A stretch of DNA of 33,755 bases, taken from positions 4,484,703-4,518,457 of the forward strand of contig NC_057759.1 in the NCBI RefSeq assembly GCF_004010195.1, read 5' to 3'. The translations under genes and the position numbers were made by a program. Source of the DNA: Chiloscyllium plagiosum. Taxonomy: Eukaryota. The notes beneath the pieces are model-generated. The model was given only the letters and a program-made list of their open reading frames with translations, ran no database searches and was not told where the DNA came from. Shown here piece after piece: positions 1,984 to 33,507 of the stretch (the first letter of the stretch is position 1; every line of letters begins with the position of its first letter).

Positions 1984-3466
1984 GTAAAGGATACAGTATG
2001 TAAACTTTCATAACATTTCTGGTTCAGTGAAAGTGGGAGATTTTCTCAAGTTTACCTTAACCCTCTAAAACCCAGCCACTTTTAAACATCGCAAGTGAGA
2101 AAGGCCAATTTTGATGGTATTAGGCAAGAACTTACAAAAGCTGATTGGGCGCAGATGTTCGCAGGTAATGGGAAGGCTGGAAAATAGGAAGTCTTCAGAA
2201 ATGAGATAATGAGAATCCAGAGAAAGTATATTCCTGTCAGGGTGAAAGGAAAGACTGGTAGGTATAGGGAATGCTGGATGACTAAAGAAATTGAAGGTTT
2301 GGTTAAGAAAAGGAAGGAAGCATATATAAGTTATAGAAGGATAGATCGAGAGAATCCTTAGGAGAGTATGAAGGAAGTAGGAATATACTTGAGAGAGAAA
2401 TCAGGAGGGGAAGAAGGGGACATGAGATAGCTTTGGCAAATAGAATTAAGGAGATCCAAAGGGGTTTTACAAATACTTTAAGGACAAAAAGGGGTTACTA
2501 GTGAGAGAATAGGGCCCCTCAAAGATCAGCAAGGTGGCCTTTGGGTGGAACCGCAGGAGATGGGGGAGATACTAAACGAGTATTTTGCATCAGTATTTAC
2601 GATGGAAAAGGACATGGAAGGTCTCGAATGTACGGAAATAGATGGTGACATTTTAAAAAATGTCCATCTTAGAGAGGAGGAAGTGCTGGATGACATGAAA
2701 CGCATAAAAGTGGAGAAATCCCCAGGACCTGATCAGGTGTACCCTAGAACCCTGTGGGAAGCTCGGGAAGTGATTGCTAGGCCTCTTGCTGAGATATTTG
2801 AACATTGATAGTCACAGATGAGGTGCCGGAAGACTAGGAGGTTGGCTAAGGTAGTGCCACTGTTTAAGAAAGGTGGTAAGGACAAACCAGGGAACTATAG
2901 ACCAGTGAGTCTGACATCGGTGGTGGGCAAGTTGTTGGAAGGAATCCTGAGGAACAGGATGTACATATATTTGGAAAGGCAAGGACTAATTACAGATAGT
3001 CAACATGGCTTTGTGTGTGGGAAATCATGTCTCAGAAACATGATTGAGTTGTTTGAAGAAGTAACAAAGAGGATTGATGAGGGTAGAGCGGTAGATGTGA
3101 TAAATACAGACTTCAGTAAGGCATTCGACAAGGTTCCCCATGGGGGACTGGTTAGCAAGGTTAGATCTCGTGGAATACAGGGAGAACTAGCCATTTGGAT
3201 ACAGAACTGGTTCAAAGGTAGTAAACGGAGGGTAGTGATGGAAGGTTGGTTTTCAGACTGGAGGCCTGTGACCAGTGGAGTGCCACAAGGATCGGTGCTG
3301 GGTCCACTACTTTTTATCATTTATATAAATGATTTGGATGTGAGCAGAAGAGGTACAGTTAGTAAGTTTAACTAGGAGAAAGTGAGGACTGCAGATACTG
3401 GAAACCAGAGTTGAAAAATGTGGTGCTGGAAAAACACAGCAGGCCAGGCAGCATCCGAGGAGCAGG

Positions 3467-3506
3467 AGATTTGACGTTTCGGGCATAAGCGCTTCTTCAG
3501 AAATCT
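3467..3506 (-). ncRNA. Minimal type I hammerhead ribozyme motif (PLE family 1)
   Basis: Minus strand reads agauuu CUGAAGA A GCGC UUAU GCCC GAAACGUC aaaucu. Intact CUGANGA/GAAA core, 6-bp helix I, helix II with one mismatch, palindromic ACGU helix III. Predicted cut after GUC (3473). Confidence 0.75.
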
Positions 3507-4682
3507 TTTTGTCTAGCCGCGTGTCGAACTCATTGATCCAGAGCATAGGGGGATGAAGGCGAGGCCTCTGCTGAGGACTGATCTTTCATCCTTAGGGGGA
3601 GGTTTGGAGGGATGGTGAAAATACGGTAGGGCTGGGAGCTAGGACCTGGTGTGGGGCTGGAGTTGGTCGTGGGGGCGGAGTTGGTTGATGTGGGAGTGGC
3701 GTAGCGTGCATTGTGGTCCTTGAGCAGGTGAGTGACGTCACTGAGAGCAGAAGTGGCTGCGGCAACGGCAGCTCCGGGGGCGGAAGTGGCGTGCCGGGCA
3801 GAAATGGCGCTGGTCCCGGTAGCCATGGATCCCGCGGCGGCCGCGTATCTGTCGGCGATGGTCTTCCTAGCAATCATGGAGGCGGTTGTCTGGGCAGCGA
3901 TCGCAGAGGTTGCATGGTCGGTGGTGGCTGTTGTCTGTGCGGTGGTGGGGGAGGAAGTGACGTCACCGTTCGCCGCGGCAATGGTGGCTGCAGCAGCTGT
4001 GTGGGCAATGGCGCCTGAGCGGTTCCAGAGGTCGCAAGAAGGTTCAGGAACGGTCGAGGAATCCGGAGTGTGAGGGTGAGTACATGAAAGTTTTCGTACT
4101 TACTTTCTTTGATGTTCGATATGGCTAAGAAAAAGCGTTTGTTCAGTGTATGAATTCTTCTGAGGATGAAGAACAGCAAAGGTCCTTTGCAAGAGTGTTG
4201 TCCTGAGCTGGGGCAGGGCTGACTGCAGGAAGTGTAGGTAGCGGCGCATGGCTGCGCGCTTGGAGCGGAGGATCCGGAGGGAGGTCTGTTTCATGGAGGC
4301 TTCGGATTTGTTGCAGGTACAGGTTGTCCTGGTTGGGTCCAAATTGTGTTGGTCTGAATGTAGTCCGGAGTCCATGCGGGGTCAGTCGGTTCCATAGGCA
4401 GGTGCTGAGGAAAGAGATGTGGCTGTGATAGCGAGTCTGTTTCAGGTCGTGGCTGAAGAGCTTCAGGGCAGAGGAGATGACCTGGGGGGAGGGACTCATC
4501 TGAGATCCTTGTAGAGAGAGGGAGGAGAGCTTCTTCAAGGTAGGCATCCTTGCAAGAGGATTCGCAGTAGGTTAAGATCAACTAGGAGAAAGTGAGGACT
4601 GCAGATCCTGGAGACCAGAGTTGAAAAATGTGGTGCTGGAAAAACACAGCAGGCCAGGCAGCATCCGAGGAGCAGGAGAATC

Positions 4683-4710
4683 GACGTTTTGGGCATAAGC
4701 CCTTCTTCAG
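4683..4710 (-). ncRNA. Hammerhead motif, inactive-looking copy (G12 to A, helix I partner truncated)
   Basis: CUGAAGA A GGGC UUAU GCCC AAAACGUC. Perfect helix II, but GAAA has become AAAA at a CpG site. Confidence 0.65.
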
Positions 4711-5904
4711 TTAGTAAGTTTGCGGATAACACCAAAACTGAAGTGTAGTGGACAGCGAAGGAGGTTACCTCAGATTACAACGGGATGTTGATCAGATGTG
4801 CCAATGGGCTGAGAAGGATAAATGTGAGGTGTTGCATTTTGGAAAAACAAATCTTAGCAGGACTTATACACTTAATGGTAAGGTCCTAGGGAGTGTTGCT
4901 GAACAAAGAGACCTTGGAATGCAGGCTCATAGCTCCTTAAAAGTGGAATCACAGGTAGATAGGATAGTGAAGAAGGCATTTGGTATGCTTTGCTTTATTG
5001 GTCAGAGTATTGAGTACAGGAGCTGGGAGGTCATGTTGCGGCTGTACAGGACATTAATTCGCCCACTTTTGGAACATTGCTTGCAATTCTGGTTGGAGGA
5101 TTTGAGCTATATGGAAAGGTTGAATAGACTAGGGCTATTTTCTCTACAGTGTTGGAGGCTCTAGGGTGACCTCATAGAGGTTCATAAAATCATGAGAGGC
5201 ATGGATAGGATAAATAGATAAAGTCTTTTCCCTGGGGTGGAGGGTGAGAGGGGAAGGATTTAAAAGAGGACTAAAGGACAACTTTTTCACGCAGAGGGTG
5301 GTACGTGTATGGAATGAGCTGCCAGAGGAAATGGTGGAGGCTAGTACAATTGCTACATTTAAAAGGCATCTGGATGGGTATATGAATAGGAAGGGTTTGG
5401 AGGGATATGGGCCGGGTGCTGTCAGGTGGAGCTAGATTGGGTTAGGATATCTTCTCGGCATGGACGAGTTGGACCGAAGGGTCTGTTTCCATGCTGTACA
5501 TCTCTGTGACCCTAATGTTTCCTTTGCTTATAGCATGGAGTGATGATCTACCCAAATGTTTTGAATCTTTTTACATCAGTTGAATTTATTAATAATCAAT
5601 AGTGTTTGCAATCAATTAAATCATAGACATGTTTCATCTATGTCAACTAAATTAACAATAGGGCAATGTGAATTGGAAGAAGGAATGCTACATTGATGAT
5701 TAATTACTTTTCCTTTCATCTTGTTTTGAGGGGATGCCTACATTTAAGCCTGGGACATCATTCTATTGATTGCCCCAGTACAACAGCTTAATGTCTGAGA
5801 GTGGTCCTTTCTGGCCTTGGTCTTAGGGGCAAGGAGCCATTCGCTCTGGGTCTAGCATCATTCACATGAGGAGCATTGCCATTTCATTTCCCTGAGTGTT
5901 TCTT

Positions 5905-6917
5905 TGGTGACACAACGATAGGTGGAAGGACAGCTAGTGTTGAGGAAGCAGGGAGGCTGCAGAAGGATTTGGACAGGCTGGGAGAGTGGGCAACAAAATG
6001 GCTGATGGAATACAATGTGGGAAAGTGGGAAGAACAGAGACAGAGACAGTTTTTGAAATGGGGAAAGGGTTCAGAAATCTGAAGAACAAAAGGACTTCGG
6101 AGTCTGAGTTCAGGATTCCTTTCAGGTTGGGCAAAAGTGAGGACAGAAGATGCCAGAAACCTGATGAAGGGCTTTTGCCCGAAACATCAATTTTCCTGCT
6201 CCTTGGATGCTGCCTGACCTGCTGTGCTTTTCCAGCACCACTCTGATCTCTTATTTTCAGGTTAACAGGCAGGTTCAGTTGACAGTTAGGAAGGCAAATG
6301 GAATGTCAGCATTCATTTTGTGAGGTGTAGAATACAAGAGCAGGGATGTACTGCTGAGGCTGTATTAGGCTCTGGTCAGACCACATTTGGAACATTTGAG
6401 AGCAGTTTTGGGCCCCCTATCTAAGGAAGAATGTGCTGAACTTGGAGGAAGTTCAGAGGGGGTTTACAAGAAAAATCACAGGAATGAAGAATTTATCATA
6501 TGAGGAGAGGTTGAGGACTCCTTGAGTCTGGATTCAGTGGAGTTTAGAAGGGTGAGGGTGAATCTGATTGAAACTGGGAGAATACTGAACGGCCGGGATA
6601 GAGTGGACATGGAGAATATGTTTCCATGAGTAGGAGAGACTAGGACCCGAAGGCACAGCCTCAGAATGAAGGGAACTCCCTTTAGAACTGAGATGAGGAG
6701 GAATTTCTTCAGCCAGACAGTGGGGAATCTGTGGAACTCATTACTGCAGACAGCTGTCATTATGTCTTTAAGACAGAGATAGATAGATAGATAGATTCTT
6801 GATCAGTAGGATGATGAACCATTACAGAGAGAAGGCATGAGAATGGGGTTAACAAACATATCAGCCATAACGGAGCAGACTTGATGGGCTGAATGGCTGC
6901 TCTCTCTTATGGTCTTG
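5905..6917 (+). mobile_element. CR1-clade LINE 3' portion, older family
   Basis: DT.IGG...LQKDLDRLGEWA.KWLMEYNVGK, ALVRPHLE, RRNFFSQ.V..LWNSL motifs; decayed 3' UTR; small (GATA)n at about 6778-6795. Confidence 0.85.
6129..6254. mobile_element. Short PLE family-1 terminal-repeat insertion with internal inversion; hammerhead core on + strand at 6161-6188
   Basis: Flanked by TTTCAGGTT at 6120-6128 and 6255-6263. AAAGTGAGGAC... is followed by the opposite-orientation CTGATGA A GGGC TTTT GCCC GAAAC ATC. Confidence 0.8.
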
Positions 6918-11359: not shown

Positions 11360-12030
11360 TAAAGACATTTCTCTCCATGTCACTCCTAGCTCTCTTGCTG
11401 ACAGTGTTGAAATTGTGACCCCTAGTTACTGACATACCAAGTAATGGTAAAAAAAATTCTTGTTTCCCCTGTCAAAATTCTTCATAACCCCTCTCTTAAT
11501 CTTCTCTGCTCCAAGGAGAAGGAGCCTAATCATTCCTTGTAAGTAAAATCCTTCATTCCTGCTATCATTCTAGTCAATCTCCTGTGAACCTTCTCCAGAG
11601 CTTGAAGATCCTTCCTTAAATAGAACTGAAATGTGGTCTGACCAATGATTTGTAGAGGTATAGCATCACTTCCTCAGTTTTATACTCAATGCCTCTATTT
11701 ATACACCTTCTTCACAAAGGTTTCAGCTTGCCTGACCACCTTCAGAGAATGATACACATGAACCCCGAGGTACCTCTGTTCCAATGCTCCCCTCAATGAT
11801 GTACAATTGACAATGTGTTGCTTTGTGTTTCTGTTAGCAAAATGCATTTCATTACATTTCTCTGCATTGGAATTCATCTGCCAAGTTTCTGCCCATTTGG
11901 CCAACTTGTCATCTACCTGTGAAGTCACTCAGCATCATCCTCACAATTCACTCTTCTCCCTGGGTTAGTATCAACTGCGAATTTAGAGATTATATCCTCA
12001 ACACCCAACTCCTAATCATTTATATAACAA
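11360..12030 (-). mobile_element. Decayed CR1-type LINE fragment
   Basis: ORF 11695..11928: KLAKWAETWQMNSNAEKCNEMHF...RYLGVHV. Confidence 0.75.
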
Positions 12031-12465
12031 TGTAGTTTTCAACGTGTACTTGTCAGTTTCTTTTATGTGCATGTAAATATTAATCTCTACCTATCCGTTA
12101 CCGCTATGTGAACCAGTCTGTTCCTGCTCTGTGAATTGAGACAGTCAATATTGGCCTGTATTTGCCCGTTCTGCCCATTTGGCCAACTTGTCATCTACCT
12201 GTGAAGTCACTCAGCATCATCCTCACAATTCACTCTTCTCCCTGGGTTAGTATCAACTGCGAATTTAGAGATTATATCCTCAACACCCAACTCCTAATCA
12301 TTTATATAACAATGCAGTTTTCAGTGTGTACTTGTCAGTTTCTTTTATGTGCATATAACTATTAATCTCTACCTATCCGTTACCGCTATGTGAATGTATT
12401 TACCAGTCTGCTCCTGCTCTGTGAATTGAGACCGTCAATATTGGCCTGTGTGTCTTTGCCCATTT
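11887..12465. repeat. Tandem duplication, unit about 282 bp (11887-12168 and 12169 to about 12461)
   Basis: Near-identical copies beginning TTCTGCCCATTTGGCCAACTTG, with a few substitutions and small indels. Confidence 0.95.
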
Positions 12466-14154: not shown

Positions 14155-15022
14155 GACAAAAGATTAACTCTATCCTTCTCAGTTACTGATAGCTGAAATG
14201 TTTCCTTCAATACCTGTACTCACTATCTACTTCATATATGGTTGTTCAAGCTACCAGCATCGTCTTTGTTCACCTCGATTGTAATGTTATATCCATTTTA
14301 AAGTTCAGAACCCATGAGGACGGCCTCAATTGGGACCTAGGGTTCCTGTCACACTACAGGTGTCTCCAATAAACTGAACACTCTCTCACATGCTCGCACT
14401 CACGCAGACCCGCTCTCCTCCACACACATATATACACACACACACCCTCTCACAGGTTTATACTCCATCACACTCACACATACACAGTTTACCAAGCATG
14501 CACACACACATTCTCAGGTGCATTCACACACATATGCACACACTCTCACATGTAGTCACATATAAGTGACTGGGGTGAATTTGCATTTGCAGAATTATAT
14601 TTGCAGATACATTCTGTTTTGCTCAATCTGCAGTCAATCCATGTAATATTTTATAAATTCCCACTTTGGAATTAGAACCAGCCTTACTTAAGATTGGGAT
14701 AAAGTATGACTCTAACCTCACACCTTTGATACATTTTCTGAGCTAAAATAAAATCTTAAGTGATCTTGACAATGTGACTTTAAACAAGTTCTGGGATTTA
14801 TATATTAATGTACTGCAACCCATTCTAAAAGATGAATTACTGAACAGTAATCTAGGTTTGTTAAATATATCATTTCAGTTGCATGCCACTAATCTTTTGC
14901 TATAAATTCTGTGTTTTACGATCCTGTTTCAGAGCTACCTGATGAACGAGCAGCGCTGTGAAAGCTCGTTCTTCCAAATGAACCTGTTGGACTGTAATCT
15001 GGTGTTGTGTGATTTTTATCTT
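14155..15022 (+). mobile_element. Penelope-like element 3' fragment (family 2) with a degenerate hammerhead at 14936-14970
   Basis: KFRTHEDGLNWDLGFLSHY (GIY-YIG C-terminal end, about 14301-14357), CA-rich tract at about 14380-14560, then CTGATGA A CGAGC AGC GCTGT GAAAGCTC and terminus GGTGTTGTGTGATTTTT. The left boundary is uncertain. Confidence 0.75.
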
Positions 15023-15210: not shown

Positions 15211-18200
15211 GGTTTAAGAAGATTTATAGCTCAGGTTGAGGTTCTGGATCTAACTTTGCTCACTGAACTGGAAGGTTCGTTTTCAGACATTTTGTCACCA
15301 TACTTGGTAACATCATCAGGGAGCCTCCAGATGAAGCACCAGTGGTATGGCCTGTTTTCTATTTGGGTGTTTAGGTTTTCTTGGAAAGGTGACATAATTT
15401 CCTGTGGTGATGTCGAGTCATAGAGATGTAGAACACGGAAATGAACTCTGCGGTCCAACTCGTCCATGCCAACCAGATATCCCAACCCAATCTAACCTGC
15501 CAGCACCTGGTCCATATCCCTCCAAACACTTCCTATTCATATACCCATCCAGATGCCTTTTTAATGTTGCAATTGTACTAGTGTCCACCACTTCCTCTGG
15601 CATCTCATTCCATACAAGTACCACCCTCTGAGTGAAAAGGTTGCTCCTTAGATCTCTTCTATATCTTTCCCCTCTCACCCTAAACCTATGTAGTCTAGTT
15701 CTGGACTCCCCCACCCCAGGGAAAAGACTTTGTCTATTTTTCCTATCCATGCCTCTCATGATTTTGTAAAACTCTATAAGGTCACCCCTCAGCTTCTGAC
15801 GCTCCAGGAAAAATAGCCCTAGCCTATTCAACCTCTCCCGATAGCTCAAATGCTCCAACCCTGGAGCATTCTTGTAAATCTTTTCTGAACTCTTTCATTT
15901 TTCACAACATCTTTCTGATAGGAAGGAGAACAGAACTGCACGCAATATTCCAATAGTGGCCTAACCAACGTCCTGTTCAGCCGCAACATGACCTCCCAAC
16001 TCCTGTACTCAATACTCTGACCAATAAAGGAAAGCATACCAAACGCTTTCTTCATTATCCTATCTACCTGCACTCCAAGGTCTCTTTGTTCAGCAAACTC
16101 CCTAGGACCTTACCATTAAGTGTTTAAGTGCTCCTAAGATTTGCTTTCCCAAAATGCAGCACCTCAGATTTATCTAAATTAAACTCCATCTGCCAATTCT
16201 CAGCCCATTGGCTCATCTGATCAAGATCCAGTTGTAATCTGAAGTAACCTTCTTCGCTATTCACTACACCTCCTATTTTGGTGTCAACAGCAAACTTACT
16301 ATCTATACCTCTTATCCTCACATCCAAATCATTTATATAAATGATGAAAAGTAGTGGACCCAGCACTGATCCTTGTGGCAATCCACTGGTCACAGATCTT
16401 CAGTCTGAAAAACAACCTTCCACCACCACTCTCTGTCTTCTACTTTTGTGCTAGTTCTGTATCCAAATGGCTAGTTCTCCCTGTATTCCATGAGATTTAA
16501 CCTTGTTCACCAGTCTCCCATGGGGAACCGTGTCGAACGCCTTACTGAAGTCCGTATAGATCACATCTACCCCTCTGCCCTCATCAATCCGCTTTGTTGC
16601 TTCTTCAAAAAATTCAATCAAGTTTGTGAAACATGATTTCCCAGGCATAAAGCCATGTTGACTATCCCTTATCAGTCCTTGCCTTCCCAAATACATGTAC
16701 ATCCTGTCCCTCCGGATTCCCTCCAACAACTTGTCCACCACCAGCGTCAGGCTCACTGATCTGTACTTCCCTGACTTATCCTTACCACCCTTCTTAAACA
16801 GTGGCACCACGTTAGCCAACCTCCAGTCTTCCAGCACCTCACCTGTGACTATCAATTATACAAATATCTCAGTAAGAGGCCCAGCAATCACTTCCCTAGC
16901 TTCCCACAAAGTTCTAGGGTTTCTAGGGATTTATCCACCTTTATACATTTCAAGACATCCAGCACTTCCTACACAGTAATACGGACATTTTTCAAGATGT
17001 CACCATCTATTTCCCTATGTTCTATATCTTCCACGTGCTTTTCCACAGTAAATACTGATGCAAAAATATTCATTTAGTATCTTCCCCCATCTCCACACAA
17101 AGGCCACCTTGCTGATCTTTGAGGGGCCCCATTCTCTCCCTGGTTACCCTTTTGTCCTTAATGCATTTGTAAAAACCCTTTGGATTCTCCTTAACTCTAT
17201 TTGCCTAAGCTATCTCATGTCATCTTATCACACTCCTGATTTCTCTGTTAGTCTACTCCTAATGCCTTTATACTCTTCCAAGGATTCATCCTGTCTATAC
17301 TTGACATATGCTTCCCTCTTTTTCTTAACCAAACTCTCAATTTCTTTAGTCATCCAGCATTCCTTATACCTACTACCCTTCCCGTTCACCCGAACAGGAA
17401 TATACTTTTTCTCGTTGTCTCATTTCTGAAGACTTCCCATTTTTCCAGCCATCCCTTTACCTGCGAACATCTGCCCCCAGTCAGCTTTCCGAAGTTCTTG
17501 CCTAATGGCATCAAAATTGGCTTTCCTCCAATTTAGAAATTCAACTTCAACTTTTAGATCTATCCTTTTCCATCACTATTTTAAAACTAATAGAGTTATG
17601 GTTACTGGCCCCAACTTGCTCCCCCATTGACACCTCAGTCACCTGTCCTGCCTTATTTCCCAAGAGTAAGTCAAGTTTTGCACCTTCTCCAGGAGGTACA
17701 TCCACATACTGAATCAGAATTGGTTTTTTTTCAAGTACACTTAAATTCCTCTCCATCTAAACCCTTAGCACTATGGCAGTCCCAGTCTATGTTTGGAAAG
17801 TTAAAATCCCCTACCATAACCATCCTATTATTCTTACAGATAACTGAGATCTCCTTACAAATTTGTTTCTCAATTTCCCTCTGACTATTAGGGGGTCTAT
17901 AATACAATACAATAAGGTTATCATCCCTTTCTAATCTCTCAGTTCCACCTAAATAACTTCCCCGGATGTATTTCCAGGAATATCCTCCCTAAGTACAGCT
18001 GTAATGCTATCCCTTATCAAAAATGCCACTCCCCCTCCTCTCTTGCCTGCCTTTCTGTCTTCTTGTAGCATTTGTATCCTGGAACATTAAACTGCCAGTC
18101 CTGTCCATTCCTCAGTCACGTTTCTGTAGTTTCCGGTGGTGATGTCATTTCTGGTTCTTTTTCTCAAGGGGTGGTAAATGGGATCCAAGTCAATGTGTTT

Positions 18201-18426
18201 GTTGATGGATTTCTGGTTGGAATGCCATGCTTCTACAAGTTCTCATTCATGTCTCTCTTTGGCTTGTCCTAGGATGGATATGTTGTCGCAGTCAAAGTTG
18301 TGTCCTTCCTCATCTGTATGTAAGGATACTAGTGAGATTGGGTCATGTCTTTTCGTGGCTAGTTGATGTACATGTATCCTACTAGCTAGTTTTCTGCCTG
18401 TTTGTCCAGTGTGGTGGACTCATATC
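15211..18426 (-). mobile_element. Penelope-like element 3' fragment (family 3): GIY-YIG endonuclease remnant plus hammerhead-bearing terminus, split by a CR1 insertion
   Basis: From 18413 down to about 18170 it reads HTGQTGRKLASRIHVHQLATKRHD...GHNFD.DNISILG...ELVEAWHSNQKSINKHIDLDPIY. Hammerhead at 15286-15319 (CUGAUGA U GUUACC aaguau GGUGAC AAAAUGUC, CpG-decayed). Flanked by TAGAAGTCT(A/T)TAAA at 15197-15210 and 18427-18440. Confidence 0.85.
15415..18129 (-). mobile_element. CR1-clade LINE (endonuclease region to 3' end), same family as 2097-5513
   Basis: RT motifs in ORFs 16451..16855, 16124..16393 and 15418..15858. 17-bp duplication TTTCC(T/G)GTGGTGATGTC at 15398-15414 and 18130-18146. Confidence 0.95.
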
Positions 18427-19654: not shown

Positions 19655-19860
19655 AAAGTTAAAAATCACTCAACACCAGGTTATAGTCCAACAGGTTTAT
19701 TTGGAGGCACTAGCTTTTGGAGCACTGCTTCTTCATCAGGTGATTGTGGAGAGTAAGATTGTAAGACACAATTTATAGCAAAAGTTTCCAGTGTGATGTA
19801 ACCGAAATTATATATTGAAAAAGTCCCGAATTGTTTGTTAAGTCTCTCTCTTTTGGAATC
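19655..19860 (-). mobile_element. PLE family-2 terminal fragment with hammerhead motif at 19708-19742
   Basis: Reverse-complement homologue of about 14820-15022; cac CUGAUGA A GAAGC agu GCUCC AAAAGCUA gug (G12 to A). Confidence 0.8.
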
Positions 19861-20035: not shown

Positions 20036-20121
20036 AGAAAAAAATCACACAACACCAGATTATAGTTCAACAGGTTTATTTGGAAGTACTAGCTTTCGGC
20101 GTTCTGCTCCTTCATTAGTAG
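20036..20121 (-). mobile_element. 86-bp PLE family-2 terminal insertion with degenerate hammerhead
   Basis: Perfect 12-bp duplication CTCACTATTTAG at 20024-20035 and 20122-20133; homologous to 19660-19742. Confidence 0.85.
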
Positions 20122-20839
20122 CTCACTATTTAGTATTCCTTAATCATGGCACCTCTGTTCCAAGGAATACAACCACAACCTCTCCAATCTCTCCTGATAG
20201 CTACAATTCACCAGCCTTGGCAACATTCTCAAATCTCCTCAACACTCTCCAGAGCAATGACGTCCTTCCAGTGATGTGGGGACCCAACTGCACACAATAC
20301 TCCAGTTGTAGCCTCACCAGTGCCTTATACAGTTTCATTGTTATATTCCTACTTTTGTATTCCATCCCTCTGCCAATGAAGGAAAGCATTCCACGTGCCT
20401 TCTTTACAACCCCATCTACCTTTCGGGACCTGTGTACTTGCACACCAAGATCTCTCACGATCCCATTTATTGTCTATGCCCATTTACTGTTTGACTTCCC
20501 AAAATGCATTCCCTCACACTTATCAGAGCTGAACTCCATCTGTCACTTTTGTGCCCACTACTCCAAACGATATATGATTGTTTTGGAGCCTACAGCTATC
20601 CTCCACACATGACCAATTTTTGTGTCACCTGCAAATTTCACAAATTTATCCACCACATTCAAGTCCAAATCCTTAATGTATAAAACAAACAGCAGAGGTC
20701 CCAACACTGAGCCATGCAGAGCACCACTTGAAACAACTTTCCATTCACAAGAGCAGCCATCAACCATTGCCATTTGTTTCCTGTTTACTAAGCCAACTTT
20801 GCATCCAATTCACCACATTACCCTGTATCCCATAGTTAA

Positions 20840-25920: not shown

Positions 25921-26027
25921 TTACGAACAAAGGATAACCTGAAAAATGAAGTTCAAAAAACACGAACACACATGTGAACTTCACACGGTCTTACTCTCCC
26001 TCATTTGCCGAACAGTATCTGTCCATT

Positions 26028-26159
26028 AGGAGAAAGTGAGGACTGCAGATGCTGGAGATCAGAGCTGAAAAATGTTTGCTGGAAAAGCGCAGCAGGTCAG
26101 GCAGCAGCAAAGGAACAGGAGAATTGACGTTTCGGGCATTAGCCTTTCTTCAGGAACCT
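26028..26159 (-). mobile_element. Solo PLE family-1 terminal repeat with hammerhead motif (26126-26153), between H2A and H2B
   Basis: 13-bp duplication GTATCTGTCCATT at 26015-26027 and 26160-26172; CUGAAGA A AGGC UAAU GCCC GAAACGUC. Confidence 0.88.
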
Positions 26160-28209: not shown

Positions 28210-28355
28210 CGAGGAGAAAGTGAGAACTGCAGCTGCTGGGGATCAGAAGCTTATGGCCAGAACGTCGAGATGAAGGGCTTCTGCTTGAAACATCGATCCT
28301 CCTGCTCCTCAGATGCTGCCTGACCTACTGTGCTTTTCCAGCACCACACTCTCAA
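28210..28355. mobile_element. Short PLE family-1 insertion with internal inversion and broken hammerhead
   Basis: 15-bp duplication CTCCAATCTGTGCCC at 28195-28209 and 28356-28370. GGAGAAAGTGAG... is followed by the opposite-orientation GATGAAGGGCTTCTGCTTGAAACATCG. Confidence 0.88.
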
Positions 28356-29741
28356 CTCCAATCTGTGCCCGTCTGTTTCTGGGATGTATTTTTTGTAAAC
28401 TCTACTTCACAGTCTTAACATGTCAGTACGTTACTGGACTGTAACTCAAACCTTCTGAAGTGTACCTTGTTGCTTTACTGTGTCGGTGTCAATTTTGAAA
28501 GTACCAGATACCACTTTGGACTGACTCAGGAAGGACTCACTACTCTCCACTCCCCTATGAATATCAGCCTCTGCAAATTGAGGTTGGGTTTGTATTTATA
28601 ACTGCAGCATTTTGATAAAGGATAATACTTTGTACATTGTTACTGACAATATCTGTAATGTCACCGCGGATGTTACATTGTTTATGCAGTTTCTAGCTAA
28701 TCAATAATTGTATTATATCCTAACAATTTATTGCTTTGCAAGTGACTCAGTATTTCATTCTGTAACTGTCAGTTTGTTATTTCTAATCTTGTATTTACTC
28801 AGTTTCAGTCAATCACTGGCATTACAGAGAGCAAGTATCTCAACATCTCAAAGTTTCTGATGAAATGGATGGTTAATTTTTTTTTCACTTATAACTGAAT
28901 CGATCAGTATGTGATCTGTGTACACACACATATCAGTAAGTTAAATAAAAAGTGTATGGTGAATGATGCTGCAGATACAGTGTATATGCTGTAGTTATTA
29001 ACTTCTTTCAATCTTGTGTCACTTTAAATATCTCAAAGCAGAAGACCATAAGAAGCATGAGAATTCTGTGACATTTCTATCTGTCTGTGTGTACTCTGTC
29101 ATGAGAACAGATCACAAAGGCTTTAGTTATGGTCTTCATCTCATTTTGATGTTTAGTGCCCATAACCAAAGACTCCCTTATGTATCAAAAAAGATATATG
29201 GCTATATTAGCATAAATTAAGCTGATAGCTCAACCCTAACTGCTCTCTGTGGAACAGAACAAGGGGAGAATGTTCTGCATTGCTTTCTTAGACAGAAGGC
29301 TTCCTGTTCAAAACTGTGTCCCTTACTCAGGATTCTCTCATGAGCAGTGACCTACTCTCAAAGTCAACTCCCTTCAGATAATTTTTTTTGCTCTAAAGGT
29401 CATACATTATTCTTCAAAACTCCAATGAGGGTGTGTTATCAAGATGTTCCTGTCAGGTTCTGCAAAGTGAATGTTTGAGTGCAGATTTCAATCTGTACCT
29501 GACAGTTTCTGTATTTGTGCAATCATCAGTCTATCCCTGACAGCTTCAACTATATGAATGGATGAGTGCATCTGTACCTGAAAGTGTCTGTACCTGTCAG
29601 TTTGTGCTCTCTGACTGAGTGAGTGTACTTACATATTTGTCTCTGTTTAACATGACACTTGCAGAAACTGCAGGAGCTCTATTTACTACAAATCTCTGTT
29701 GCTCAACATGAATAAGATTTTATCTATTGCCATCCATGTCA

Positions 29742-30525: not shown

Positions 30526-33507
30526 CAGGTATGATGTTTTGGAAAGTGTAGGGGGTGATGGCTGCTCATGCTACGTTCCCTTGAGAATCCAAGTTTCTGG
30601 TACTGAGACTGGCTCTAATGCAACAAGGGGTATGTTGGCTTCCAAGAGATCAATTATGTTAGGTGATTGTGTAGTCAGAGGTACAGACAGACGTTTCTGT
30701 GCTCAGAAGCGATAAAGCAGAATGGTGTGTTGGTTCCCTGGTGCCAGGATCAAGGATGTCTCAGAGAGGGTACAGAATGTTCTCATGGGGGAAGAGGGGC
30801 CAGCAAGAGGTCATTGTCCACATTGGAACCAACGACATAGGAAGGGAAACGGTTGAGATTCTGAAGGGAAATTACAGAGAGTTAGGCAGAAATTTAAAAA
30901 GGAGGTTACTCCCAGTGCTACAAGCTAGTGAGGGCATGAATAGGAGGATAGAGCAGATGAATGCATGGCTGAGGAGCTGGTGTATGGGGGAAAGATTTCC
31001 ATTTTTGGATCATTGGAATCTCTTTTGGGGTAGAAGTGACCTGTACAAGAAGGATGAATTGCACCTAAATTGGAAAAGGACTAATATACTGGCGGTGAAA
31101 TTTGTTAGAACTGCTTGGGAGGATTTAAACTATAATAAGATCATGTCTTTTTGTGGCTAGTTGATGTTCATGTATCCTGGTGGCCAGTTTTCTGCCTGTA
31201 AGGTAGGGGGGGTGGGACCCAGGGAAATAGTGAGGAAAAAGATCAGACTGAGACTGGTCCAGTTGAGAACAGAAGTGAGTCAAGACAAGGTAGGACTAAT
31301 AAATTAAACTGCATTTAAACTTCCCCTAACAAGGAAGGCAGATGGACTCAGGACGTGGTTAGGAATATGGAACTGGGATATCATAGCAATTACAGAAACA
31401 TGGCTCAGGGATGGGCAGGACTGGCAGCTTAATGTTCCAGGATACAAATGCTACAGGAAGGATAAGAAAGGGAGGCAAGAGAGGAGGGGGAGTGGCATCT
31501 TTGATAAGGTATAGCATGACAGCTGTGTCGAAGGAGGATATTCCTGGAAATACATCCAGGGAAGTTATTTGGGTGGAACTGAGAAATAAGAAAGGGATAA
31601 TCACCTTATTAGGATTGTATTATAGACCCCCCCTAATAGTCAGAGGGAAACTGAGAAACTGAGAAAGGATATCTCAGCTATCTGTTAGAATAATAGGGTG
31701 GTTATTGTAGGGGATTTTAACTTTCCAAACATAGACTGGGAGTGCCATAGTGTTGAGGGGAAAGTGAGGACTGCAGATGCTGGAGATCAGAGCTGAAAAT
31801 GTGCTGCTGGAAAAGTGCAGCAGGTCAGGCAGCATCCAGGGAACAGGCGAATCGACATTTCGGGCATAAGCCCTTCTTCAGGATGTTGCCTGACCTGCTG
31901 CGCTTTTCCAGCAACACATTTTCAGTGCCATAGTGTTAAGGATTTTGGTGGAGAGGAATTTGTTAAGTGTGTACAATACAATTTTCTGATTCAGTATGTG
32001 GATGTACCTACTAAAAAAAGGTGCAAAACTTGACCTACTCTTGGGAAATAAGGCAGGATTAGGCAAGAACTTTTGAAAGGTGATTGGGGGCAGATGTTCG
32101 CAGGTAAAGGGGCGGCTGGAAATTGGGAAGCCTTCAGATATGAGATAACGAGAATCCAGAAAAATTATATTCCTGGCAGGGTGAAAGGAAAGGCTGGTAG
32201 GTATAGGGAGTGCTGGATGACTAAAGAAATTGAGGGTTTGGTTAAGAAAAAGAAGGAAGCATATGTCAGGTATAGACAGGATAGATCAAGTGAATCCTTA
32301 GAAGAGTATAAAGGAAGTAGGAGTATACTTAAGAGGGAAATCAGGAGGGCAAAAAGGAGACATGAGATAGCTTTGGCAAATAGAATTAAGGAGAATCCAA
32401 AGGGTTTTTACAAATACACTAAGGACAAAAGGGTAACTAGGGAGAGAATACAGCCCCTCAAAGATCAACAAGGTGGTCTTTGTGTGGAGATGCAGAAAAT
32501 GGGGGAGTTACTAAATAAGTATTTTGCATCAGTATTTATTGTGGAAAAGGATATGGAAGATATGGAAGACTGTAGGGAAATAGATGGTGACATCTTGCAA
32601 AATGTCCCAATTACATAGTAGGAAGTGCTGGATGTCTTGAAACGTAAAGGTGGATAAATCCCCAGGACCTGATTGGGTGTCCCCGAGAACTCTGTGGGAA
32701 GCTAGAGAAGTGATTGCTTGGCCTCTTGCTGAGATATTTATATCATCGACAGTCACAGGTGAGGTGCCTGAAGACTGGAGGTTGGCAAACGTGGTGCCAC
32801 TGTTTAAGAAGGGTGGTAAGGACAAGCCATGGCACTATAGACCAGTGAATCTGACCATGGTGGTGGTCAAGTTGTTGAGGGAATCCTGAGGGACAGAATG
32901 TACGTGTATTTGGAAAGGCAAGAACTGGTTAGGGATAGTCAACATGGGAAATCATGTCTCACAAATTTGATTGAGTTTTTTGAAGAAGTAACAAAGAGGA
33001 TTGATGACGGCAGAGTGGTACCTGTGATCCATATGGACTTCATTAAGGCGTTCAACAAGGTTCCCTGTGGGAGACTGATTAGCAAGGTTAGATCTCATGG
33101 AATACAGGGAGAACTGGCCATTTGGATACAGAACTGGCTCAAAGGTAGAAGACAGAGGGTGGTGGTGGAGGGTTGTTTTTCAGACTGGAGGCCTGTGACC
33201 AGGGAAATACCACAAGGATCGGTGCTCTACTTCTTGTAATTTACATAAATGATTGGGATGTGAGCATAAGAGGTACAGTTAGTAAGTTTGCAGATGACAC
33301 CAAAATTGGAGGTGTAGTGGACAGCGAACAGGGTTACCTCAGATTACAACAGAATCTTGACCACATGGGCCAATGAGCTGAGATGTGGCAGATGGAGTTT
33401 AATTCAGATAAATGTGTGTTGCTGCATTTTGGGAAAGCAAATCTTAGTAGGACTTATACACTTAATGGTAAGGTCCTAGGGAGTGCTGCTGAACAAAGAG
33501 ACCTTAG
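30526..33507 (+). mobile_element. Near full-length decayed CR1 LINE: ORF1 SGNH-esterase domain plus ORF2 endonuclease and RT
   Basis: ORF1: LGDCVVRGTD, FPGARIKDV, VHIGTNDIG, DELHLN. ORF2: DIIAITETWL, GGGVA, LYYRPP, VGDFNFP, KSPGPD, SKFADDTKIGG. Internal deletion near 32056. Interrupted by the SINE at 33514. Confidence 0.95.
31755..31923 (-). mobile_element. PLE family-1 terminal repeat plus inverted partial copy; hammerhead at 31851-31884
   Basis: 14-bp duplication AGTGCCATAGTGTT at 31741-31754 and 31924-31937; auc CUGAAGA A GGGC UUAU GCCC GAAAUGUC gau. Confidence 0.9.

What the first reader, a model, noticed from the sequence alone, without database searches (positions are those of the whole stretch)
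3370..4710. RT-less Penelope derivative bracketed by two hammerhead repeats (retrozyme-like architecture)
Seen: a 1341-bp unit with 131-bp direct repeats, one target duplication around the whole unit and only the N-terminal part of a PLE ORF, which stops just after the pre-RT SVLSRGLAF motif and joins the repeat via AAAAAGATTT. The two predicted GUC cut sites (4683 and 3473) are 1210 nt apart. It landed in the SKFADD catalytic codons of a CR1 RT. Established: PLE terminal repeats carry minimal hammerheads that can act as dimers, and retrozymes are non-autonomous hammerhead-flanked elements producing monomeric or circular RNAs. Inference: this may belong to a non-autonomous shark family mobilised in trans through a ~1.2-kb self-cleaved RNA. 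This copy's upstream core is mutated.
Basis: partly seen in the sequence, partly recalled or inferred. Interest (0 to 1): 0.7.

Follow-up and report, generated by a model that had tools for sequence, protein, structure and literature searches.

The report
Gutted Penelope retroelement insertion in shark
This 1.3-kb insertion is a real but broken copy of a very common Penelope-type jumping gene, most likely stitched together once from two pieces of that element's RNA during copying, and probably not a self-cutting RNA element with its own family.

Summary
The anatomy is confirmed: 131-bp direct repeats (6 differences), one 11-14-bp target duplication, an ORF fragment whose full-length relatives carry RT and GIY-YIG, and insertion into a CR1 RT.

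The retrozyme reading is weak. Both outer ends lie outside the hammerhead cut sites. The upstream hammerhead lacks its helix-I strand and G12. The internal joint sits where four solo ~90-130-bp stubs in this window begin, next to the CUGA core. The unit therefore reads as an ordinary stub, a 6-nt filler (AAAAAG) and a 5' piece of the parent RNA. The best fit is a single template jump by the Penelope RT on uncleaved RNA (0.66).

In contigs of three public runs, summed depth just past the joint was at most 0.06-0.32% of the ORF-part peak, and 0 of 24 listed pieces (of 146,289) crossed it. No genome of this organism was held, so a species-restricted non-autonomous family is not excluded (~0.2); a ribozyme-cut circle is unlikely (~0.05). 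The scan noted the stubs before in this genome, and a similar gutted copy in another.

The parts
3356..3369 (+). Target-site duplication, left copy (11 bp from 3359; 14 bp with CAG)
   Evidence: empty site seen in another CR1 copy and in loose ends at 3369
3370..3504 (-). Downstream repeat: the same module as the solo stubs, from the helix-I 5' strand (ATTT, 3501-3504) through the hammerhead to the internal RT-start end at 3370
   Evidence: the 3' end is 117 nt from the helix-II ATG
3473..3500 (-). Minimal hammerhead core, downstream copy: CUGAAGA, helix II weakened by a change at 3491 (-1.0 vs -8.0 kcal/mol), GAAA-CG-UC, cut site after 3473
3505..3510 (-). 6-nt filler AAAAAG at the internal joint; the only A5 run on the element strand; no AATAAA/ATTAAA in the unit
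   Evidence: consensus upstream of the core from loose ends
3511..4547 (-). N-terminal part of a Penelope/Poseidon-type ORF (ATG 4547; helical N-terminus, Ala/Thr/Pro-rich linker, pre-RT motif IFTIPPNLPL..SVLSRGLAF..INEFDTRLD); at least 5 frame changes; no RT, no GIY-YIG
   Evidence: full-length relatives P0022/P0026 carry RVT_1 and GIY-YIG
4548..4579 (-). Leader between the repeat end and the ORF start
4580..4710 (-). Upstream repeat, starting at C3 of the hammerhead core; G12 changed to A (4690); no helix-I 5' strand; nominal cut site after 4683
4708..4721 (+). Target-site duplication, right copy (4708-4710 shared with the element's CTG)
2097..3369 (+). Host CR1-type LINE, RT part up to SKF
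   Evidence: Pfam RVT_1 E 3e-22; 84-86% identical to two other copies in the window; the clade name CR1 is from recall
4722..5510 (+). Host LINE continued (ADN..., 3' part)

Best explanation
A one-off, dead-on-arrival insertion made by the RT/endonuclease of an autonomous Penelope/Poseidon-type element on uncleaved RNA. Steps: (1) The endonuclease nicked an AT-rich site in an old LINE; the TSD is shown, the enzyme inferred. (2) RT started at the internal site about 117 nt downstream of the helix-II ATG and copied about 135 nt to the RNA 5' end, just upstream of CUGA; stopping here gives the common solo stub (ends shown, mechanism inferred from Anolis Poseidon). (3) RT then jumped onto the 3' end of a second, 3'-truncated transcript of the same family that ended about 1.2 kb in, and copied it to its 5' end (inferred). 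The filler may be that RNA's short oligo(A) tail plus one G copied from the first RNA's cap (speculative). (4) The 5' end joined the target by 3-nt microhomology, and neutral decay followed. The retrozyme look is the usual PLE partial tandem with a broken transcript as the second template.
For: All 6 of 6 copies of the repeat in the window begin within about 4 nt of C3, never at GUC; the internal joint is one of them. A random break over the ~1.9 kb missing would hit that +/-5-nt window about 0.6% of the time (missing length estimated from full-length relatives). The four stubs each have their own 9-15-bp TSD. The 3' end matches the RT-start distance (117 nt, vs 111-118 nt in PMC11167929), and relatives' contigs show two end clusters, about 3373-3377 and 3408-3420, like the two start sites and tail in that paper. 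That paper found that ribozyme-dead mutants insert normally and uncleaved RNA is the main template. Depth at 3510-3524 is 195/1161/271 against 71k/367k/446k in the peak ORF bin and 6.6-10.6 million in the repeat (ratios); 0 of 24 listed pieces cross the joint. Decay of the ORF next to the joint (6 of 131 sites differ from the contig majority) is not significantly above that of the repeats (6 of 262; Fisher p 0.23), as expected if the template was near-consensus. Partial tandems and an internally deleted derivative are described for PLEs; template jumping is shown for R2 RT.
Against: The own genome could not be searched. No run held even half the words (best 0.45) and no listed piece covers the flank joint, so the laid runs probably lack this locus and may be other species. 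Only 24 of 146,289 pieces were listed, and the depth dip at 3510-3539 is partly due to this copy's private changes near 3540; summed depth is not a copy number. The downstream hammerhead has a perfect 6-bp helix I that rests on two changes absent from the contig majority (3470, 3472) and a T for C next to the core; chance decay is possible, but selection in a master element would also give it. Template jumping has not been shown for a PLE RT in the papers I read. An unchecked scan note (e1-7858329) reports a 200-300-copy PLE-mobilised family in this assembly that relatives' reads show only once.
Confidence: 0.66

Rival explanations
1. A member of a small or species-restricted non-autonomous family. 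A jump or deletion created a master copy (repeat-ORF stump-repeat) that keeps the promoter region and the internal RT-start site and is copied in trans from linear, uncleaved RNA.
For: The unit keeps the cis signals needed: in Anolis Poseidon the minimal template is the hammerhead region plus about 172 nt, and pLTRs alone can move unrelated DNA in trans. Non-autonomous PLEs such as MRC1 exist. Depth at the joint is low but not zero, which leaves room for a few to some tens of copies. The perfect helix I.
Against: No sign of an abundant joint in three DNA-like runs. No protein record with the joint peptide (weak). No look-alike among earlier findings (weak). No excess decay of the body over the repeats.
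Confidence: 0.19
2. A retrozyme-like element: dimeric hammerheads cut out a 1210-nt monomer, which circularises and is reverse-transcribed a little more than once round (103 + 1210 + 28 nt).
For: The geometry is formally compatible, and this route was proposed for PLE tandems. Non-LTR retrozymes derive from pLTRs. Each repeat has a minimal-hammerhead-type sequence (one search matches the downstream core only).
Against: A circle has no end near CUGA, yet the 5' end falls where linear-template stubs stop. In a dimer the downstream cut needs the upstream copy's helix-I strand and GAAA; here the first is absent and the second mutated (pairing logic). Minimal hammerheads cut poorly in vitro; 8 of 9 Xenopus dimers did not cut; no RNA-seq reads ended at the Anolis cut site. 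Described animal retrozyme units are 51-972-bp tandem repeats.
Confidence: 0.05
3. A full-length repeat-ORF-repeat element inserted here and later lost about 1.9 kb (RT, endonuclease, 3' UTR) by a DNA deletion.
For: The copy is old and has several indels. An internally deleted PLE copy is described in Adineta.
Against: The break ends exactly at the stub start (about 0.6% by chance) and carries a filler rather than an evident microhomology. I could not see the full-length element's 3' UTR, so homology there is not excluded.
Confidence: 0.08

Closest known systems
Endonuclease-bearing Penelope-like elements, Penelope/Poseidon type, with partial-tandem pLTRs and tail (PMC11167929 main text parts 1-2 of 4; PMC8557442, PMC3846280, PMC2377424 passages)
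   Same: Hammerhead-bearing repeats at both ends, 3' end at the internal RT-start distance, long TSD at an AT-rich site, N-terminus homologous to RT + GIY-YIG ORFs.
   Different: RT, endonuclease and 3' UTR are missing. The downstream repeat begins at the hammerhead edge. The conserved ORF start lies 32 nt beyond the repeat, not in helix II as in Anolis PAc.
Minimal hammerheads of metazoan PLEs (Cervera and De la Pena 2014, PMC4209133, parts 1-2 of 4 read)
   Same: No loop 3, palindromic ACGU, extra base at the 5' side of helix II, G-C closing pair, short helix I, mostly solo copies in the genome.
   Different: Helix II is only 4 bp here; both copies in this unit are damaged.
Non-LTR retrozymes of animals (PMC7229834 passages; bioRxiv 10.64898/2026.07.22.740005 parts 1-3 of 5)
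   Same: Type I hammerheads in direct repeat, no intact ORF, PLE origin.
   Different: The unit is 1210 nt, longer than the 51-972 bp described, only 1.1 units are present, the body is a decayed ORF, the hammerheads are not both complete, and no RNA or copies were shown.
Plant LTR retrozymes (PMC4918200 passages)
   Same: Two ribozyme-bearing direct repeats around a body inside one TSD.
   Different: Those have type III hammerheads, ~350-bp LTRs, PBS/PPT, 4-bp TSDs and Ty3-gypsy helpers.
Non-autonomous Chlamys PLEs such as MRC1 (PMC8557442 passages)
   Same: RT-less PLE derivative with pLTRs.
   Different: Those are proven multi-copy active families that mostly lack hammerheads; family status is unproven here.

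Membership tests
Penelope-like element (EN+, C-terminal GIY-YIG) derivative | ORF homologous to RT + GIY-YIG PLE proteins | tested here: met
   A profile of N-terminal homologues finds 804-849-aa proteins with RVT_1 and GIY-YIG; they align to 4547-3492 in tblastn. The link is through relatives; the fragment itself has no Pfam hit.
Penelope-like element (EN+, C-terminal GIY-YIG) derivative | pLTR repeats with a minimal hammerhead; 3' end at the tail/RT-start site; TSD | tested here: met
Penelope-like element (EN+, C-terminal GIY-YIG) derivative | Clade placement (Poseidon vs Neptune) by RT phylogeny | not tested
   The unit has no RT; no tree was built. 'Poseidon-type' is a likeness, not a placement.
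Autonomous PLE | Intact RT and endonuclease | tested here: not met
   No RT or EN match inside 3370-4710 in tblastn with 7 longer relatives; at least 5 frame changes in the stump
Non-LTR retrozyme | [quoted passage not shown] | tested here: not met
   Upstream core has G12>A and no helix-I strand; downstream helix II is weakened
Non-LTR retrozyme | Short tandem unit without coding origin | tested here: not met
   1210-nt unit, 1.1 copies, 86% decayed ORF vs 51-972 bp
Non-LTR retrozyme | Multi-copy family of the same unit | tested here: inconclusive
   Joint depth at most 0.06-0.32% of the ORF peak in 3 runs of relatives, 0 of 24 listed pieces cross it; own genome not held
Non-LTR retrozyme | Self-cleaved linear and circular RNA | not testable with these tools
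   The one RNA run laid (X22) placed 0 reads anywhere on the stretch, which is no test
Plant-type LTR retrozyme | Type III hammerhead, ~350-bp LTRs, 4-bp TSD | tested here: not met
   Type I minimal motif, 131-bp repeats, 11-14-bp TSD; PBS/PPT not searched

The most novel reading that the evidence does not exclude
The unit belongs to a lineage-restricted, RT-less Penelope family about 1.2 kb long, born by a template jump onto the hammerhead edge and spread in trans. In its boldest form the master had two working dimer hammerheads (the perfect helix I being a trace of selection) and moved through a 1210-nt RNA circle, a direct intermediate between PLEs and animal retrozymes. The probability given is for a real multi-copy family; the circle version is about a quarter of it.
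Probability: 0.2. Interest if true: 0.55.

Novelty: new member of a known kind. Interest (0 to 1): 0.22.

Why it matters
As a single copy it is a footprint of how Penelope partial tandems may form: a stub copied to the RNA 5' end, then a jump to another transcript. The formation of these tandems is described as unresolved. The joint (oligo-A, one G, hammerhead edge) gives a signature that can be counted across an assembly. If siblings exist, it would be a non-autonomous PLE family that keeps the front of the ORF, a missing step between PLEs and retrozymes, whose link has so far been argued from pLTR similarity and co-occurrence.

Tried and rejected
Own genome: none held, so the decisive copy count could not be run.

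DNA pattern scans found 0 matches: joint pattern in metagenome contigs; repeat patterns in viral contigs (21), metagenome contigs (23) and genome contigs (60). These collections hold little animal DNA, so the blanks say nothing.

Rfam gave no hammerhead. The joint-spanning peptide found no protein (7 candidates, 0 hits; weak). ESM Atlas on P0001 residues 1-165 gave only weak HEAT/CLASP-like leads, not used. No RNA holder was listed with certainty, and RNA run X22 laid 0 reads, which is no test. Folding the 1210-nt monomer gave -282 kcal/mol with no shuffle control at that length, so it is uninformative.

I considered the filler as non-templated addition by RT. It cannot be excluded: the passages read give 3-4 nt of such addition for R2 RT. 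I considered it as canonical polyadenylation: there is no AATAAA or ATTAAA in the unit. Assembly artefact is unlikely (about 0.02) given the TSD, the rejoinable host frame and 6 differences between the repeats.

Searches for a published shark case: 'shark, Penelope, hammerhead ribozyme' gave 1 review listing; 'shark, Penelope, transposable elements, Chiloscyllium' gave 1 listing; 'Penelope, internally deleted, nonautonomous, pLTR' (at least 3 of 4 terms) listed 5. No title or abstract start described this unit; of those listings only PMC8557442 was opened. Repbase/Dfam could not be searched, and the bioRxiv preprint's supplements (which include one cartilaginous fish) were not seen.

Full report
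OBSERVATION. The unit spans 3370-4710 and is read on the minus strand. Two 131-bp direct repeats differ at 6 sites without indels and lie 1210 nt apart, which fixes the distance between the two GUC sites at 3473 and 4683. One duplication, CAGTTAGTAAGTTT, flanks the whole unit. Its CAG is part of the target, as an uninterrupted copy of the host LINE near 33.27 kb shows, so the element's 5' end is joined either by a 14-bp TSD or by an 11-bp TSD with 3 nt of microhomology. The rejoined host reads GTVSKF|ADN and its left part is Pfam RVT_1.

WHAT THE BODY IS. The first 94 codons hit shark proteins, best a Hemiscyllium ocellatum prediction at 77% (4 hits among 85 candidates; 20 hits). A profile of 8 such N-termini found 7 longer proteins; four of 804-849 aa are near full length, and the two scanned carry RVT_1 and GIY-YIG (the GIY-YIG score of P0022 and the RVT_1 score of P0026 fall just under Pfam's cut-offs). 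In tblastn these proteins match the unit from the ATG at 4547 to the pre-RT stretch and nowhere beyond. Homology ends at INEFDTRLD, position 3511, and the stump changes frame at least five times. So this is the first ~1.04 kb of a Penelope-like ORF, without RT and endonuclease. The organism is a shark by these hits; I did not identify it further.

THE REPEAT IS A COMMON STUB. The same module occurs four more times in the window without any ORF: 26027-26159, 31756-31922, 6134-6250 and 28212-28358. Each has its own duplication of 13, 14, 9 and 15 bp; three carry an inverted 5' piece. All 6 of 6 copies, including both in the unit, begin within about 4 nt of the hammerhead's C3 and none begins at the GUC cut. 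In relatives' contigs the repeat has 20 to 93 times the summed depth of the ORF part; loose ends behind 3490-3495 share only CAGGAATG before they diverge, so the family consensus upstream of the core is CATTC. The unit's 3' end is 117 nt from the ATG in helix II. In Anolis Poseidon, RT starts internally 111-118 nt after the equivalent ATG, at two sites that define the tail; it uses uncleaved RNA, and ribozyme-dead templates insert normally (PMC11167929, main text). Contig ends here cluster at about 3373-3377 and 3408-3420, which fits two such sites.

THE JOINT. On the element strand it reads ORF...GAC, AAAAAG, ATTT, CTGAAGA. ATTT matches the consensus ATTC with one change, so the downstream repeat starts exactly where stubs start and the filler is 6 nt (3505-3510; the first A may still be ORF). 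A random break over the roughly 1.9 kb that is missing would land within 5 nt of that point about 0.6% of the time (the length is an estimate). The unit thus decomposes into a stub, a filler and a 5' piece of the parent RNA that again runs to the stub start. The G at position -5 replaces a consensus C, and stub 26027 also has G there. Two cases are too few, but copying of a cap G (recalled from LINE-1 work, not checked) would give this. There is no polyadenylation signal in the unit.

THE HAMMERHEADS. The motif is the minimal type with palindromic ACGU that needs a dimer (PMC4209133); Rfam does not detect it. A core pattern matches 8 times in the window against 1.5 expected (0 of 100 shuffles reach 8), including the downstream but not the upstream copy. 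In a dimer, each cut uses helix-I strand, CUGA, helix II and GAAA of one copy with the UC and 3' strand of the other (my reading of the dimer drawn). The downstream cut therefore needs the upstream half, which has host DNA in place of the helix-I strand (no pairing) and A for G12. The upstream cut needs the downstream half, whose helix II has dropped from -8.0 to -1.0 kcal/mol. This locus cannot be expected to release a 1210-nt monomer. One oddity points the other way: the downstream copy has a perfect 6-bp helix I with itself, built on changes at 3470 and 3472 that the contig majority and the upstream copy lack; 3472 is a CpG site.

IS IT A FAMILY? No genome was held. Of 24 listed runs none held half of the sampled words (best 0.45). 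I laid 4 runs on 3300-3720 at 85% likeness: X1 and X3 (organism A), X7 (organism B) and RNA run X22, which placed nothing. Summed contig depth was 6.6, 10.6 and 9.0 million in the repeat, 71k, 367k and 446k in the peak ORF bin, and 195, 1161 and 271 at 3510-3524. That is at most 0.27%, 0.32% and 0.06% of the ORF peak, and it includes parent-element contigs that end there. None of the 24 listed pieces crosses the joint or the flank junction. Limits: 146,265 pieces were not shown, depth is not copy number, this copy's own changes near 3540 deepen the dip, and the runs seem to lack this locus. The result speaks against a family of hundreds of copies shared with these relatives, not against a small or species-restricted one. 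An unchecked scan note (e1-7858329) reports such a restricted family for another element in this genome. Sites 3540-3670 differ from the contig majority at 6 of 131, the repeats at 6 of 262 (p 0.23): no sign that the template had already decayed.

MECHANISM. Best reading (0.66): target-primed reverse transcription by the parent's enzyme, internal start, copying to the RNA 5' end, one jump to a 3'-truncated transcript, copying to its 5' end, microhomology join, decay. Shown: the ends, TSD, joint and lesions. Inferred: the enzyme, the jump (demonstrated for R2 RT, PMC8857657 passages, not for PLEs) and the RNA 5' end at the hammerhead edge (Drosophila Penelope has an internal promoter in the pLTR). 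Rivals: small trans-mobilised family on linear RNA 0.19; later DNA deletion 0.08; ribozyme-cut circle 0.05; artefact 0.02.

COMPARISON AND VERDICT. It works like, and belongs to, the complex partial-tandem insertions of endonuclease-bearing PLEs. It resembles retrozymes in outline only and fails their tested features: two complete hammerheads and a short tandem unit. That animal retrozymes derive from PLE repeats is already argued in a 2026 preprint. New member of a known kind; interest 0.22. Earlier scan notes on this genome report the same stubs and the same 5' clustering; they agree with what I measured in this window but are not independent support.

Noticed in passing
window 26027-26159 (-): Solo ~130-bp hammerhead stub with a 13-bp TSD and an intact core pattern; it has G at -5 and -4 in place of the consensus CA.
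   Followed up: partly
window 6134-6250, 28212-28358, 31756-31922: Three more stubs, each with an inverted 5' piece and its own TSD (9, 15, 14 bp); the one at 28.2 kb also carries a partial second hammerhead piece before its core.
   Followed up: partly
window 14939-14967 (+): A hammerhead-core match of different sequence, within a ~165-bp repeat shared with 19656-19822 and 20036-20124; probably a second Penelope stub family.
   Followed up: no
window 17646-18413 and 31141-32058: A ~375-bp repeat pair (88% identical) and weak tblastn matches to the GIY-YIG region of PLE proteins at 18078-18137 and 18267-18413 (E 0.45-0.59); possibly the 3' part of another PLE-like family.
   Followed up: no
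window 11887-12449: Tandem duplication of about 280 bp, 95% identical.
   Followed up: no
window 3463-3472 and 3501-3506: Changes on both sides of the downstream hammerhead make a perfect 6-bp helix I not seen in the upstream copy or the contig majority; chance, templated correction or selection.
   Followed up: partly
P0001, P0004: NCBI gene models named 'mucin-2-like' or 'uncharacterized' in carpet sharks are frameshifted Penelope ORFs.
   Followed up: partly
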